From Octopus vulgaris (lineage: Eukaryota), in assembly GCA_951406725.2 (NCBI GenBank), contig OX597815.1, positions 18,972,001-19,036,000 of the forward strand: DNA of 64,000 nucleotides, written 5' to 3'. Position numbers and translations under genes: made by a program. Below, one piece after another: positions 17,633 through 51,570 of the stretch; the first letter of the stretch is position 1; each line of letters starts with the position of its first letter. The notes beneath the pieces are model-generated. The model ran no database searches, had not been told where the DNA came from, and saw nothing but the letters and a program-made list of their open reading frames with translations.

Positions 17633-18416
17633 AAAAACCCGGTTAATTATAAGGCTCATAGTAACTCATTACTTCAGTTACAGAGTATACTGTTCTTCAG
17701 GGTATTAAATTCTCTTAAACCTAAGATTGCGTGTTGTACAACTGTTTATATCCTATTGGGTATCCAAATATTATTGGAGTATGAATAGTTAGAGGCACAA
17801 TTAGAAAACTTGTAATGTTTATTGATGAATGTATGGAAGCGTTACTTTTATCTTTTACGCAGACGAGATGTTAGTATTACATCTATTGAATATGATACTA
17901 ACATGTAAGTCAATATAAGTCAATAAAGATATTTGGGTTAGGTTGTGTTTTTCCACGATAGCTTGGTCTACAGCAGAAGATTCAATACACATGCATCTGA
18001 AAAAATCGTAGTGAAGGTTCTATTTTGAGGCGTCAAGAATAGGGTTTAGAGAAAGTACCCCATGGAAGTAGTCAGCATTATTTATATACTCTTGTTAAAC
18101 GCACTCATATGCATTATAACGAAGCGAAAAGATTCGAGTAGCTGAGAGTCTCAATGGGAGTAAAGGAAAAAGTTCCCTAATGGAAGTTATACGATAAACA
18201 CATACACATACACACACACACACAATCAGAGAAAATAACTACAAAACGGAGGAGCTAACCGAAAGTTTGGGGAAGAGAAATTAATTCAATTGGTAGTGAA
18301 AATTTGCATTGAAGTCAAAAAGCCATTCTTTGAAAAGAGTACAAATGCTTGAAATTATTCTCCTCAGCGAAGATTTTTGGTCAGCTTCATAAAATTGATT
18401 GTGTACGTCTATCTAT

Positions 18417-18529
<113 letters not shown>

Positions 18530-18560
18530 ACTATATATACATACATACATAAATACATAC

Positions 18561-18594
<34 letters not shown>

Positions 18595-18801: not shown

Positions 18802-19249
18802 CACACACACTTATAGTGACGCAGATTATGAGAAACAATATGGCTGAGTGAAAAGTACACTATGAAAACAATAAAGGTATGTACGTGATTCACTGAAGAG
18901 TTAAATGAGATTGAAACACGTTCGTTATTTTCAACCGTTTGCTTTCAAGGGTAGATTAACTCTCATCTGCATTTTCCAGAATTTTCTACTGGCCCATCTC
19001 CTTGCACTTAGTTCCGTTGTTTGTTGCTCTTGCATTCTCATCCACACCTAGAATGAGTTTTTTTTTCATCGTCTAACTGCTTGATAAATATTAGTTAATT
19101 AGTCGCCATGTATCATATTTTGAGGCACTTCCGTTATAACTTTATCTTAAGTTAATTTAACTCACCCTCATTGTTTTCATAGTGTATTTTTCACTCAGCC
19201 ATATTGTTTCTCATAATCTACGTCACTATATTTGTGGGTATGTATGTGG

Positions 19250-19286
<37 letters not shown>

Positions 19287-19332
19287 CATATATAGTGAAA
19301 GATACTATATTTAAAAGCAGCAGAAATTCAAC

Positions 19333-19382
19333 AAAGCCTGTTACTCGCGGAGTTTCACGTTCCCGTTCGTCGGACAGTTTTG
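19333..19382 (-). ncRNA. Antisense hammerhead copy (U4C core variant)
   Basis: Minus strand AAAACUGU-CCGACGA-ACG(GGAA)CGU-GAAA-CUC(CGC)GAG-UA/ACAG. Confidence 0.65.
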
Positions 19383-19431
19383 TTGGAGTTTCACGTTCCC
19401 GTTCGTCGGACAGTTTTGTTAAAATTTTAAC

Positions 19432-19478
19432 AAAACTGTCTGACGAACGGGAACGTGAAACTCCGAGTAACAGGTTTT
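19432..19478 (+). ncRNA. Minimal type I hammerhead ribozyme (intact core)
   Basis: AAAACUGU-CUGACGA-ACG(GGAA)CGU-GAAA-CUC(C)GAG-UA/ACAG-GUUUU: all conserved core nucleotides and stems I, II and III are present; predicted cleavage after 19469. Confidence 0.8.
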
Positions 19479-19593
19479 GTTGAATTTCTGCTGCTTTTAA
19501 ATAAAACATATTACTCTACCCCTGGTATTTGAGTACTCTATTTTTCCACAATGTTTCACATTTATGTGTTTACTCCGGTATAGTGAAAGATAG

Positions 19594-19819
<226 letters not shown>

Positions 19820-20377
19820 GTACACAATCACTTTTAAGAAGCTTTTAAGAAGCTGACCAAAAGTCTTCGCTGAGGAGGTATAACAGGATCGAAACAGAAT
19901 AATTTCAAACATGTGTACTCTTTTCAAGGAATGGCTTTTGACTTCAATGCAAATTTTCACTACCAATTGAATTACTTTCTCTGAACAGAGCATTTTCGAT
20001 GTTTATTGATCCAGAATTTGGTTTTAATGACAAGATCCATTCCAATCCGCATCAAGTTCATTTTGTAAAACTTTCTGTTTTGCATCTTATTAGATTTATT
20101 TGCTTGATGATTTTAGATTTTAAATACAACTAGAGGTTACTTTTAAGAATGCATTGCAGAATAATCTCTGTAGACGGTTTTCAGCTCACTATATTACATA
20201 TCTAAACCCCATCGTGTGCCATCTAAGAAGTGTTTTTGTCATTTGCCGCCATTACATCTTGCTGAAATTTTTTCATCTACCATGCCCAATAGTAGATGAA
20301 ATATCAAGGTGCTTTCTTGACATGGTACGTACAATGTCAAGTAAGCACCAGAATTCTATAGAAATAATCTCCTTTAC

Positions 20378-31033: not shown

Positions 31034-31112
31034 ACTTTATTTAAAGCACGAGAAAATTCAACAAAATCTGTTACTCTATGTTTCTCGTTGCCGTTCATCA
31101 GACAGTTTTTGC
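31034..31112 (-). mobile_element. Penelope-like pLTR fragment with hammerhead (same family as 19.4 kb)
   Basis: Minus strand AAAACUGU-CUGAUGA-ACG(GCAA)CGA-GAAA-CAUAGAG-UA/ACAG-AUUUU; core intact, stems II and III mismatched; (TA)n on both sides. Confidence 0.7.
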
Positions 31113-41059: not shown

Positions 41060-42645
41060 CATACTTTACCGTGGTGGTGCTTGTATTCTTTTTGTACAAA
41101 GCTCTCCCAATTCACTTACCAAATGGGTCACATTTTCCACTCTTTTCCACAGAGTCTGCATTTCTGGGTGTCAGCAGTTTTATAGATGTTATACTTCACT
41201 GAATTGATAGCGAGAGGCTGGTCTAGGGCAGCAATGATCAGACTTTCGGTGGTACGTTTCAAATCACCTCGCTCAAGCCATGCCTACGATGCTGTATTAT
41301 CCTTAATGTCCTGTGTATACCTTTCAAACTGTCCATGTATTCTCAGTTCAAGAACGTCTCCTTTTCTCTTCTCCTCAGCTCTTTGGTTAAACTCTTCCTT
41401 GCTCATCATTTCATCTGTATTTACACCTATATCTTTCGTGGCATATTGCAGCAGGTCTTCATCACTATATACCAAATACTCGGCAAGCGTACTCCTTTCA
41501 CTCCTTATAAAATGGCCTATACCAGTTAGTCCTCTGCCACCATTCTTTCTTTTCATATACAGACTGTTTACATTTGCTTTAGGGTGTAGCGCCCCATGCA
41601 GCGTCATCAACTTTCTCGTCCTTACACCCGGTGTTGATATTTCCTACTTAGTCCATTTGAAGATGGACGCAGTTTATCTGACCACCGCAACTGGCCAGAC
41701 ATTCGTTGCGGTAATCAAATTTTTGACATTCAGGTTGGATTTCAACACCATCTTCACCCATTTTTAATACGCCTCTCTGACCTTGACCTTCATTTCTCTG
41801 TATTGAATGTCATCCAGCTTCAAAATTCCTAAATATCTATATCTACTACTGTCAGGTTCACCCATGGTCTCTCCTGATGGTAATCGCAATCCTAAGCAGA
41901 CTGTTTTCTTCCCTATTTTCATATTAAGTACTGAGCATTTGGTAATCCCAAATTCTATACCGATGTCCCCACCACACTTCTGCACTGTTTTGGTTAAGGA
42001 ATCTATCTGTTTTTCAGATTTCCCAAACAATTTCAGGTCATCCATAAACAGAAGATGGTTCAATAATGGGCCTTTCTTCTCACAGCGGTAACCCATCTTG
42101 ACTTTCCTAGGTATTATTGTTATGGGTATTAGTGAAATTACAAATAGTAACGGAGAAAACGAGTCGCCTTGAAAGATGCCCCTCTTGATATTAACTTCTC
42201 CAAGGAATACATTACTTGAGTACAATTTGGTTTTCCAGTCTTTCGTGCAATGCATCAGACAATTTGCGATGTGTTCAACAACGCCAAACCACTGCAGGCA
42301 TTCACCGATCCCAAAATAAGGCATTATATCATATGCATTCTTAAAGTCAATCCAAGCCATAGACATGTTTGTATGATATTCTTACAATGCCTCAAAACTG
42401 ATTTATCTATGACAAGGTGATCCTTGGTATCCTAAGAACTCTTCCTATATCCTTTTGTTCCCTTGGTAGTATTTCTTCCTGTGCTAGGAAAGTGTGTATT
42501 TGCTACACATATTCCAGTCAGGTTCATCCAGATTATGTTTAGGCATGCTATGGTACGGTAGTTTCCCCACAATATTCCCCTTTCTTCTATCTTTCATTGT
42601 AAGTGTTGTCCTCCAAGTCATCATCCGCGCGGGCACTATACCTTT
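41060..42645 (-). mobile_element. Non-LTR retrotransposon pseudogene, R4/Dong-like (RLE-type) reverse transcriptase plus start of the zinc knuckle
   Basis: Motifs NYRTIACL, AWIDFKNAYD, RGIFQGDSFSPLLF, NHLLFMDDLKL, EFGITKC, YRYLGI, HPKANVNSLYMKRKNGGRGL, HGQF, DLKRTTESLIIAA, CRLCGK..E...H; frameshifts and stops. Confidence 0.92.
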
Positions 42646-45869: not shown

Positions 45870-46475
45870 GCACTTAAATTGTGGCACCTTGCCAATTCGA
45901 TATAGTCCGCACACCCCAACAATATCATTTGAATACTGAATATCAAGACTCCGTGTAGGGGTGTTTCTACTTAATATCCCTATCTAATGAGAAGACATAT
46001 ATGTATAAAACTTAGATATTTTTCCAGACCATGTGTAACTTAATAGCACCACCTGATAGGCTTATCTAAATCCTTTTTAAGTCAAGTTTTGTTTATGGTC
46101 CATTTAAGTGGGTTCTTGTTGAGTGAGTTGTATCCAGGTATTGGTGGCTTATCTGATATTCCTTGAAGACGTCTGTACAGACTCCGTTTAAAGGTGATGG
46201 GATCATTTTCCTCTTTAATCAGTTTTGGGACAATGTTAAGCAGGGCAGAGTCTGTTGAGGAAAATACATTATGTCGCAGTGCACCTATATGTTGTGATCC
46301 TGAATTGGGCAGTGGACGTATGGCCCGTGGTCCCAGCCTTGGTTGAAACTTGAGACTAATGTTCAGGTCGTTTGGGCAACGCTGGCAGTATTTTCTCCGC
46401 ATCGTACAAATGATGTACCACTCGCTGCGGCGCTGGAGAGAGTAGAGTTTCAAGGCTTTAAGGTGGTCCCAAATC
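45870..46475 (-). mobile_element. CR1-group LINE 3' end (ORF2 C-terminus plus 3' UTR)
   Basis: LKLYSLQRR...LLNIVP...FKRSL...ISDKPPIPGY matches the CR1-type tail LxSLxRRR...LFNxLP...FKxxLD...PDxP. Confidence 0.8.
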
Positions 46476-47859
46476 CAATAAATATATCCTTACCCAGCTT
46501 GTCTTTACTGTGACCAACGATGGATCCTCCTACACCGTAGATTATCTTGGGTAACAGGCGCCCAAACATCTTTCAATTATATGAAAAGACCCTGGAAAAA
46601 TGCAGAAGGTCACGTCTGATATGCCTTCGATCATAGGCCATGTCTGGATTGATTTAGTTACCGTGCATTAAACAAATCTGCATTTTATTTGAAGAATTTG
46701 ACCCTCTTTGTATTAGTAAAGATATTCAGTAGAAACACATGAAAGACTTGCTAAATGGAGGTTAGTATATAAACTAACTGATCATGTGTGGACCAATATA
46801 TGAACTCATATAATGTTTAAGACTTTTGAGATTGTAATAAAAATAAAATAGTCGTATCGTCCCAGCCGAAGGACTACGTGCACTTGTAAACACATTTTTT
46901 CTGAACATAATTGTTTTATATGACTGAATTTAGATTTTCCCAACACATACGCAAACATAAACACACATTCACACACAGATCCACAAGCATACACACGGAT
47001 ACTTACAGAAAGATATAACTTAAACACTTCTTTGATATCAGGTAAAATTCAAGGCAATAGCAATTTCCAGGTAGAAAATCAAATTTATTTTCTAAAATAA
47101 TTTTGGCTCGTTTACAACGATACGAGTATCTTGAAGTAATTTATTTGACTGTATTATTTTGAGGTAGCTACATACGTTCTAAATTTGTAACTTTCAAAAT
47201 AAATTAATAACTTCATTCAATGAAATTTGAAGAGACATAGCGGTTAATATTAACTCTAATTTGGTCAGTTATTGCTCTAAGAATATACATACAGACTAAG
47301 AAATTTGCATTCCAGTAAGATCAATGGTGTGGTGAAAATATTCGATAATTATTGATATATTTGCATTTACATAAAATTATATATCAAAACGGTCAATCAT
47401 TAAATTGGTGGATAAAAAGTATTTGTTATATTTTTGACAAGGAAAACGCTGAGAATTACTTCGAAGTTTCGTCTAGCTATGTGCCATGATGAAGTCTGTT
47501 GATGGCTATTAAACAGGAACTTTGGAGTAACTGTCATATTTTCCCTTTAAATATATACAAACTCTCATGGATGGATGGATGGATGGATGGATGGATGGAT
47601 GGATGAAAGGATGGAAGGATGGATGGAAGGATTGATGGATGAGCATCAATCATGTATAACACCTCATTACAGAATGTGCAATGTGAAATGAAGTGCTTTG
47701 CTCCTGGACGTAGCGTTCCACCAGGTTCATGAATTGAACCTATAACCTTATTATAATGAGCTGAACACTATTATCAACAACGCTACACACCTTCATACAT
47801 CGCATTTATTCTTTCTATGTATGTATGTATGTATGTATGTATGTATGTATGTATGTATG

Positions 47860-51050: not shown

Positions 51051-51052
<2 letters not shown>

Positions 51053-51569
51053 AGAGTAAGCGCATAAATGCGAAATAAGGTGGGAAAATAGTACTCGAAT
51101 GCCAGAGGTAGAGTAATATGCTTTATTAAAAAGCAGCAAAAATATCACAAAAACTTCTACTCAGAGTTTCACGTTCCCATCCGTCGGAGTTTTGTTTAGG
51201 ATGAGACAAAAATAAGGTTATAAGCAAACATATACAATTAGTTTAATGGAAACACATTTGAAAATTGTTTTGTTTCATTGGCCCTTTCTGCTAACGGTCT
51301 TTACAATGACCGGTTGCATGCGATTTTTTGATTTAAGGTATTCTTCAATTTTATAACAAGATGATTTTATACGGTATTTGTTCATTGCATGCAACCCGTC
51401 ATTGTAAAGACGGTTAGTTGAAAGGACCGATGAAGCAAAACCATTTTCAAATGTATATCCATTAAACTAATTGTATATGTTTGGATATCACCTTATTTTC
51501 GTTTCATTCTAAACAAAACTGTCCGACGAACAGGATATTTTGTGATATCTTTGCTGCTTTTTAATAAAG

Positions 51570-51570
<1 letters not shown>
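51051..51570. mobile_element. Penelope-like inverted pLTR cassette (same family as 19.4 kb), hammerheads decayed
   Basis: Arms 51121-51323 and 51384-51569; the unpaired tail 51051-51120 is the reverse complement of 19508-19578; gagtttcacgttccc and aaaactgtccgacgaac remnants; (TA)n on both sides. Confidence 0.82.

What the first reader, a model, noticed from the sequence alone, without database searches (positions are those of the whole stretch)
19291..19592. Bidirectional hammerhead-ribozyme palindrome with an extra half-ribozyme, inserted as a unit
Seen: an intact type I hammerhead on the plus strand (19432-19478; CUGACGA core, stem II ACG-GGAA-CGU, GAAA, stem III CUC-C-GAG, GUA cleavage triplet, stem I CUGU/ACAG). 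An inverted copy lies on the minus strand (U4C, stem III loop CGC), and an exact 36-bp duplication adds a second minus-strand 5' half (core plus stem II). The palindrome centre has no loop, and a 14-bp direct repeat flanks the whole 274-bp unit. Known: minimal hammerheads with unstable palindromic stem III mark Penelope pLTRs and generally need dimerisation to cleave. Inference: this is a non-autonomous, ORF-free Penelope-mobilised unit. In a plus-strand intronic transcript the ribozyme would be masked by its own antisense arm, so it could behave as a fold-dependent or editing-dependent self-cleaving switch.
Basis: partly seen in the sequence, partly recalled or inferred. Interest (0 to 1): 0.75.

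Follow-up and report, generated by a model that had tools for sequence, protein, structure and literature searches.

The report
Back-to-back stub of Penelope retrotransposon
This 274-base mirror-image insertion is two short copies of the front end of a very common jumping gene joined head to head, likely made in one landing; its one textbook-looking self-cutting RNA most likely owes that look to a later point mutation and is predicted to be locked up by the opposite half, so it is ordinary transposon debris rather than a switch.

Summary
The anatomy is real: plus-strand type I hammerhead (19429-19481), inverted U4C copy, exact 36-bp duplication, loop-less centre, 14-bp flanking repeat. It is a stub of a Hydra-clade Penelope-like element (PLE): the same leader sits directly upstream of 704-705-aa open RT/GIY-YIG frames elsewhere in the genome. 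It is not rare: 60 of 99 sampled related loci have an inverted partner, and 59 of 64 pairs join one short and one long (about 70-nt tail) arm, with 51 different junctions. The units are therefore likely rebuilt at each insertion, not copied as a unit. The 'intact' core is probably an accident: this subfamily reads CCGACGA (1135 exact copies) against CTGACGA 86, like other CpG-decay products (57 and 71), and this locus's own left arm keeps C twice. In the full palindrome the ribozyme stems have predicted probability near 0. The extra half-ribozyme is unique to this locus and resembles junction duplications in 4 other pairs. Useful residue: this is the only one of 77 units with a readable target duplication, and the lineage seems to have lost and regained the canonical core. 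New member of a known kind; interest low.

The parts
19291..19304 (+). Target-site duplication, left copy (14 bp), at a (TA)n/(GATA)n microsatellite boundary
19305..19424 (-). Short (tail-less) inverted arm of the PLE leader; outer end at the family's short end
19331..19384 (-). Type I hammerhead motif with the subfamily's U4C core and a 2-bp insertion in stem III found in 0 of 35 compared arms
19349..19420 (-). Exact 36-bp tandem duplication (19349-84, 19385-420) giving the extra half-ribozyme; junction unique in the genome
19418..19431 (.). Loop-less palindrome centre (19424|19425); the same 14-base centre occurs in 6 other of 64 pairs; lies on an initiator-like site where most copies' 5' ends stop
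19425..19578 (+). Long arm of the PLE leader (hammerhead plus tail)
19429..19481 (+). Type I hammerhead motif, core CUGACGA; T19441 likely CpG decay of the family C; predicted cut 19469|19470
19507..19578 (+). 'Tail' (72 bp here, about 70 in the family) between the short and long ends; in ORF-linked copies it is 5' UTR, continuing about 70 nt further to the ATG
19579..19592 (+). Target-site duplication, right copy, running into (GATA)n

Best explanation
The unit is a head-to-head pair of leader fragments (pLTR with hammerhead, plus tail) of a Hydra-clade Penelope-like retrotransposon, likely built in one insertion when the element's enzyme nicked both strands of an AT-rich target 14 bases apart, copied the element's RNA twice from its two internal start sites until each copy ran off the RNA's likely 5' end, and the two copy ends were joined. 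The 36-bp duplication is likely a slip during that copying or joining. Afterwards each arm decayed independently, and a CpG C-to-T change likely turned the subfamily's U4C core into the canonical one on the plus arm. In any read-through transcript the ribozyme is predicted to be paired with the arm made before it and to be silent. Shown: family identity, short+long anatomy, junction variety, 5'-end pile-up, allele counts. Inferred: two priming events, RNA start site, origin of the duplication, lack of cleavage.
For: Leader directly upstream of the ORF in 7 of 30 ORF loci, e.g. L143, L144; 704-705 aa open with RWK, DKT, YRDD, CxCX5C, GIY-YIG without CCHH, CxxC, CxH, the Hydra-clade definition (PMC8557442 section 11). 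Inverted partner at 23 of 39 and 37 of 60 pattern-chosen loci. 59 of 64 pairs long+short, 51 distinct junctions; non-CpG subfamily mismatches 0.34 within pairs vs 2.05 between loci; centres switch from AATT to CTAG with the subfamily's own upstream sequence. 5' ends within 15 nt of stem I in 109 of 149 arms; partner arms, not selected for the core, start at -13..0 in 15 of 23 and none further upstream. In vitro a PLE protein cuts and extends both strands, starts internally at two sites that bound the tail, and is predicted to be a dimer (PMC11167929). CpG: 1135 CCGACGA, 86 CTGACGA, 57 CCAACGA, 71 CCGATGA (chi-square of the three p = 0.05); partners of T arms carry C in 19 of 22 scorable pairs; none of this locus's changes is shared by both arms. 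Junction-side tandem duplications in 5 of 64 pairs including this one. Hammerhead stem probabilities 0.000 once the left arm is present.
Against: No RNA 5'-end data: the start site is inferred from an initiator-like motif (recalled consensus YYANWYY) and the pile-up. The centre fits equally a blunt join at -7, a 2-nt overlap at -8 or a 4-nt AATT overlap at -9. Many copies run far past the pile-up (15 of 30 in the youngest subfamily), which needs tandem read-through or a template jump. CTGACGA (86) exceeds its opposite-strand control (57; p = 0.019) and 3 of 21 T-bearing pairs are T/T (p = 0.18 against independence), so a small inherited-T lineage is possible. The duplication copies are identical and lack microhomology, so it could be later than the insertion. 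The locus samples are not random (30 chosen by likeness to the query, 60 for a T arm). The empty site was not seen.
Confidence: 0.8

Rival explanations
1. Self-priming/fold-back: one copy primed on itself (or on an antisense template, as proposed in PMC3846280) produced the mirror arm.
For: Palindromes at inverted junctions were read this way in Adineta PLEs; arms nearly always belong to one subfamily; self-complementary AATT/CTAG at the centres.
Against: Fold-back copies its own arm, so it does not by itself give two different precise outer ends in 59 of 64 pairs; both outer ends abut target TA (64 and 67 of 77); arms often have unequal inner lengths with extra junction bases.
Confidence: 0.12
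2. Non-autonomous palindromic element transcribed and mobilised as a unit.
For: Unit lengths cluster near 225-240 bp; two centres recur (6 and 5 of 64 pairs); guessed-RNA assemblies contain family palindrome junctions.
Against: 51 distinct junctions in 64 pairs; recurrent centres are those expected from microhomology; long+short asymmetry matches RT start sites; this locus's duplication occurs once.
Confidence: 0.05
3. The locus is an exapted fold- or editing-dependent self-cleaving switch.
For: Canonical core and dimer-compatible stem III on the plus arm; long duplexes are editing substrates (general knowledge).
Against: Core likely from CpG decay; about 8 scattered changes as in neutral decay; stems sequestered co-transcriptionally; even unmasked PLE minimal hammerheads cut poorly and only as dimers or with protein (PMC4209133; PMC11167929); transcription not shown.
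Confidence: 0.03

Closest known systems
Hydra clade of C-terminal-endonuclease Penelope-like elements (Craig et al. 2021, PMC8557442), nearest ribozymes Hydra-2_Amil and Hydra-2_Ajap
   Same: All listed protein motifs, (TA)n targeting, hammerhead in the pLTR. File S2 gives Hydra-2_Amil stem I ctgt/acag, stem III actc-g-gagt, cleavage a, and Hydra-2_Ajap stem III actc-c-gagt, nearly the same as here.
   Different: Not Hydra-1_Obim, whose listed hammerhead is different. About 1-kb 3' UTR makes the element about 3.3 kb rather than under 3 kb. Large subfamilies carry U4C; stem II is 3 bp with A10.1-U11.1.
Typical EN+ PLE insertion with inverted pLTR, tail and TSD (Pen2a_Av, PMC3846280; fig. 2 legend of PMC8557442)
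   Same: Inverted 5'-truncated copy, tail on one end only, palindromic junction, 8-10 bp TSDs, initiator-like site in the pLTR.
   Different: Both halves are leader-only; tail about 70 nt rather than 30-40; TSD 14 bp.
Opposite-strand dual minimal hammerheads of Schistosoma PLEs (Cervera and de la Pena 2014, PMC4209133)
   Same: Paired motifs on opposite strands, ascribed to truncated PLEs.
   Different: There 100-700 bp apart; here 14 bp apart, and a small stem III is present.
Animal non-LTR retrozymes (bioRxiv 10.64898/2026.07.22.740005)
   Same: ORF-less, type I hammerhead, PLE pLTR ancestry.
   Different: Retrozymes are head-to-tail tandem units with a ribozyme in each; this is head-to-head and does not propagate as a unit.

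Membership tests
Hydra-clade PLE | Single ORF, RT then C-terminal GIY-YIG endonuclease | tested here: met
   L143/L144 704-705 aa open, YRDD at 343, GVVY...YTG at 579-599; Atlas neighbours carry GIY-YIG/RVT_1; Pfam itself gave no hit. The ORF is in linked copies, not in this stub.
Hydra-clade PLE | RWK motif present, DKG changed to DKT, N-terminal GxKF/Y not conserved | tested here: met
   RWK at 36, DKT at 112; only GxKF match is at 515, not N-terminal
Hydra-clade PLE | CxCX5C linker; no CCHH between GIY and YIG; CxxC and CxH around E and N | tested here: met
   (L143); several other copies have lost the second Cys of the linker
Hydra-clade PLE | (TA)n insertion preference | tested here: met
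   left flank ends ATA in 64 of 77, right flank starts TAT in 67 of 77
Hydra-clade PLE | Canonical hammerhead in pLTR | tested here: inconclusive
   Canonical in the youngest subfamily (3438); U4C in this one (1135) and in a second (898)
Hydra-clade PLE | Placement in the RT phylogeny | not tested
   No tree built; published Hydra proteins compared by eye only
PLE inverted-pLTR insertion | Inverted truncated copy, tail at one end, TSD | tested here: met
Type I hammerhead ribozyme | Core CUGANGA, GAAA, UH triplet, three stems | tested here: met
   plus arm; no Rfam match
Type I hammerhead ribozyme | Active fold accessible in its transcript | tested here: not met
   predicted P(A15.1-U16.1) 0.007 alone, 0.000 with the left arm; prediction only
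Type I hammerhead ribozyme | Self-cleavage | not testable with these tools
   needs in vitro assay
Non-LTR retrozyme | At least two head-to-tail units each with a complete hammerhead | tested here: not met
   head-to-head; the duplicate is a half motif
Non-autonomous element moving as a unit | Dispersed copies sharing the whole unit and its junction | tested here: not met

The most novel reading that the evidence does not exclude
This lineage is a natural knock-out and rescue of the Penelope hammerhead: it transposed at least 2,000 times with a U4C core, then CpG decay in the master (CCGACGA to CCGATGA to CTGATGA) restored the canonical core, and restored cleavage (and re-ligation into a circle) is what lets reverse transcriptase pass the RNA's start, so that the youngest subfamily makes long copies (15 of 30 arms) where the old one made run-off stubs like this one (3 of 39). 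Age explains the same gradient, and the intermediate U4C subfamily (6 of 20) does not differ from the youngest (p = 0.24).
Probability: 0.12. Interest if true: 0.7.

Novelty: new member of a known kind. Interest (0 to 1): 0.25.

Why it matters
As a locus it matters little. As a data point it gives the only readable target duplication (14 bp, both primer ends ATA-3') among 77 sampled units of a family that otherwise hides in (TA)n, and it warns that canonical-looking ribozymes in repeat copies can arise by CpG decay. The family bears on two open PLE questions stated in the papers read: how tandem/inverted ends and tails form, and whether the hammerhead is needed at all (PMC8557442, PMC11167929). 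Subfamilies with and without U4 offer ready-made natural variants for that test.

Tried and rejected
Rfam: no hammerhead hit; the miRNA hits are generic hairpin matches below gathering score, rejected. Pfam gave nothing on the PLE frames. Sequencing runs: no RNA holder listed, no evidence either way. Contigs of 4 runs laid on 18850-19610 cover the unique left flank and the repeat but no listed piece bridges them, so presence of this insertion or its duplication in other samples is open. Four guessed-RNA runs hold contigs over the leader and ORF of L143; RNA is a guess and contigs cannot show a start, so not used for the start site. A first two-arm comparison over-extended alignments through the palindromes and found only 9 pairs; replaced. 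The idea that the left arm's C19336 marks a second template lineage: 2 of the first 100 of 750 listed matches carry it and 0 of 35 subfamily arms, so treated as sporadic. The idea that the duplication re-enters at the ribozyme cut site: it re-enters 5 nt short of it, not pursued. L099's non-TA 3' flank was not a continuation into an ORF. Literature: six searches listed no paper stating a twin run-off model for PLE palindromes or a U4C PLE lineage; the library lacks most subscription papers, Lunse et al. 2017 (PMC5785218) is not held, and the bioRxiv preprint's supplements were not seen, so this is not proof of absence.

Full report
OBSERVATION. The plus-strand motif has core CUGACGA (19440-46), a 3-bp stem II with a GGAA loop, GAAA, a near-palindromic stem III and GUA before 19470; stem I can extend to 11 pairs with one bulge. 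The minus arm has CCGACGA and two extra bases in stem III. The 36-bp duplication is exact, the centre 19424|19425 has no loop, and a 14-bp direct repeat flanks 274 bp. The unit folds at -146 kcal/mol, z = -20.7. Rfam's hammerhead models do not detect it. The last 72 bases have no mirror.

WHAT IT BELONGS TO. The right arm matches 2255 first-look candidates in the 2.8-Gb own genome; 40 were scored, all 94-100% identical. Walking upstream from these copies led through about 1 kb of non-coding 3' region into an RT/endonuclease frame. Of 30 loci around the frame's N-terminal part, 7 carry the same hammerhead-plus-tail leader directly before the start codon; the leader is 223 nt from -9 to the ATG in L143. 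L143 and L144 read open for 704 and 705 residues to the end of the fetched stretch and hold RWK, DKT, YRDD, CxCX5C, a GIY-YIG without CCHH, CxxC and CxH. These are the diagnostic features of the Hydra clade of Penelope-like elements (PMC8557442, section 11 read whole). The ribozyme is nearly that of Hydra-2_Amil and Hydra-2_Ajap in that paper's File S2 and differs from Hydra-1_Obim. No phylogeny was built. Earlier AI notes call this genome an octopus; I did not test that.

HOW THE PALINDROME FORMS. In loci picked only by a 30-base core pattern, 23 of 39 and 37 of 60 have an inverted partner. Across all fetched loci except 9 set aside (L031, L122-128, L159), 64 distinct close head-to-head pairs cover the ribozyme on both arms: 59 join one arm ending at the short end (+75 from stem I) to one ending at the long end (+145); the other 5 scored short+short. 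They have 51 different junctions. Both arms belong to the same subfamily (0.34 non-CpG diagnostic mismatches within pairs, 2.05 between loci), and the commonest centre changes from AATT-based to CTAG-based along with the subfamily's own upstream sequence. Inner ends pile up just upstream of the ribozyme: 109 of 149 arms stop within 15 nt, and partner arms, which were not selected for the core, start at -13..0 in 15 of 23 cases with none further upstream. The spot resembles an initiator (consensus recalled); PLE promoters lie inside the pLTR (PMC2377424 passages; PMC3846280 passages). A purified PLE protein nicks and extends both strands, starts internally at two sites that bound the tail, and is predicted to dimerise (PMC11167929, parts 1-2 of 4 read). 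The simplest reading (inferred): each nicked strand primes one copy, from +75 and from +145, both run off the RNA's 5' end, and the ends are joined. This gives short arm + long arm + TSD. This locus is the only one of 77 units whose TSD can be read outside (TA)n. The architecture is published; the twin run-off reading was not found in six paper searches but is repeated in many earlier AI notes of this scan, which I saw after forming it and which are not independent support.

THE EXTRA HALF-RIBOZYME. Its junction occurs once in the genome. Tandem duplications beside the centre occur in 5 of 64 pairs including this one. It ends 4 nt from the centre, so it is likely a slip in copying or end-joining; a later event cannot be excluded, since the copies are identical.

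THE 'INTACT' CORE. Exact counts in this subfamily: CCGACGA 1135, CTGACGA 86, the opposite-strand deamination product CCAACGA 57, and the neighbouring CpG's product CCGATGA 71, with 19 double changes. In 60 of the 86 T loci fetched, the partner arm has C in 19 of 22 scorable cases. Here the left arm has C in both duplicates, and none of the arms' changes is shared. So T19441 is most likely post-insertion CpG decay. Against: 86 exceeds 57 (p = 0.019) and 3 of 21 T-bearing pairs are T/T (p = 0.18). U4C is reported to lower activity considerably in vitro while remaining viable in a viroid (PMC3088659 passages). In contrast the youngest subfamily (CTGATGA, 3438 copies, median pairwise distance 2% against 4% and 16% for the U4C groups) inherits T: its pairs are T/T 9, discordant 0. 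With canonical cores in coral and sea-cucumber relatives, the order loss-then-regain is inferred, not shown by a rooted tree.

FUNCTION. On either strand the antisense arm is transcribed before the ribozyme. Predicted stem probabilities fall to 0.000 as soon as the left arm is included, and folding of growing transcripts pairs each new base. Even alone the active fold is rare (0.007). PLE minimal hammerheads cut weakly and as dimers (PMC4209133, parts 1-2 of 4; PMC6765202 passages) or need protein. No host exon was recognised among the 100 longest of 220 candidate frames. A regulatory switch is therefore unsupported.

VERDICT. A real, ordinary stub of a Hydra-clade PLE; new member of a known kind; interest 0.25. 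The boldest open reading is that the lineage is a natural loss and rescue of the ribozyme that changes the share of long copies (15 of 30 versus 3 of 39, p = 1e-4; but 6 of 20 in the intermediate U4C subfamily, p = 0.24 against the youngest); age is the likelier cause. Other papers seen: bioRxiv 10.64898/2026.07.22.740005 part 1 of 5 and passages (supplements not seen), PMC6962438 passages; PMC5785218 not held.

Noticed in passing
window 31036-31109 (- strand): Solo short-end copy of the same family, youngest subfamily with canonical CTGATGA core, between (TA)n tracts.
   Followed up: partly
window 51051-51570: Older, longer head-to-head pair of the same family (long arm on minus, short arm on plus with an internal deletion), both arms with C at core position 4.
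   Followed up: partly
own genome: Subfamily succession CCGACGA, CCGATGA, CTGATGA looks like two CpG deaminations in the master lineage, the second restoring the canonical hammerhead core; stem II closing pair changes from A-U to A-G to A-A on the way.
   Followed up: partly
L143:1187-3298, L144: Apparently intact 704-705-aa Hydra-clade ORFs that Pfam does not recognise at E 0.01; many opposite-strand core pairs about 3.3 kb apart in the youngest subfamily suggest full-length insertions with inverted ends.
   Followed up: partly
L206 (G000:C1 about 4678574-4679369): Two palindromes of different subfamilies within 800 bp, each internally concordant.
   Followed up: no
G000:C29:21180423-21185393: Three same-strand copies of the rare CCAACGA core variant 2.3-2.7 kb apart, probably a local tandem duplication.
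   Followed up: no
window 41767-42381 (-) and 46085-46489 (-): LINE-type reverse transcriptase fragments (RVT_1 E 5e-12 for the first; the second recognised by eye only).
   Followed up: no
window 18383-18593 and 19579-19843: (TATC)n and (GATA)n microsatellites in inverted orientation about 1 kb apart enclose the unit and could form a larger duplex in a read-through transcript.
   Followed up: no
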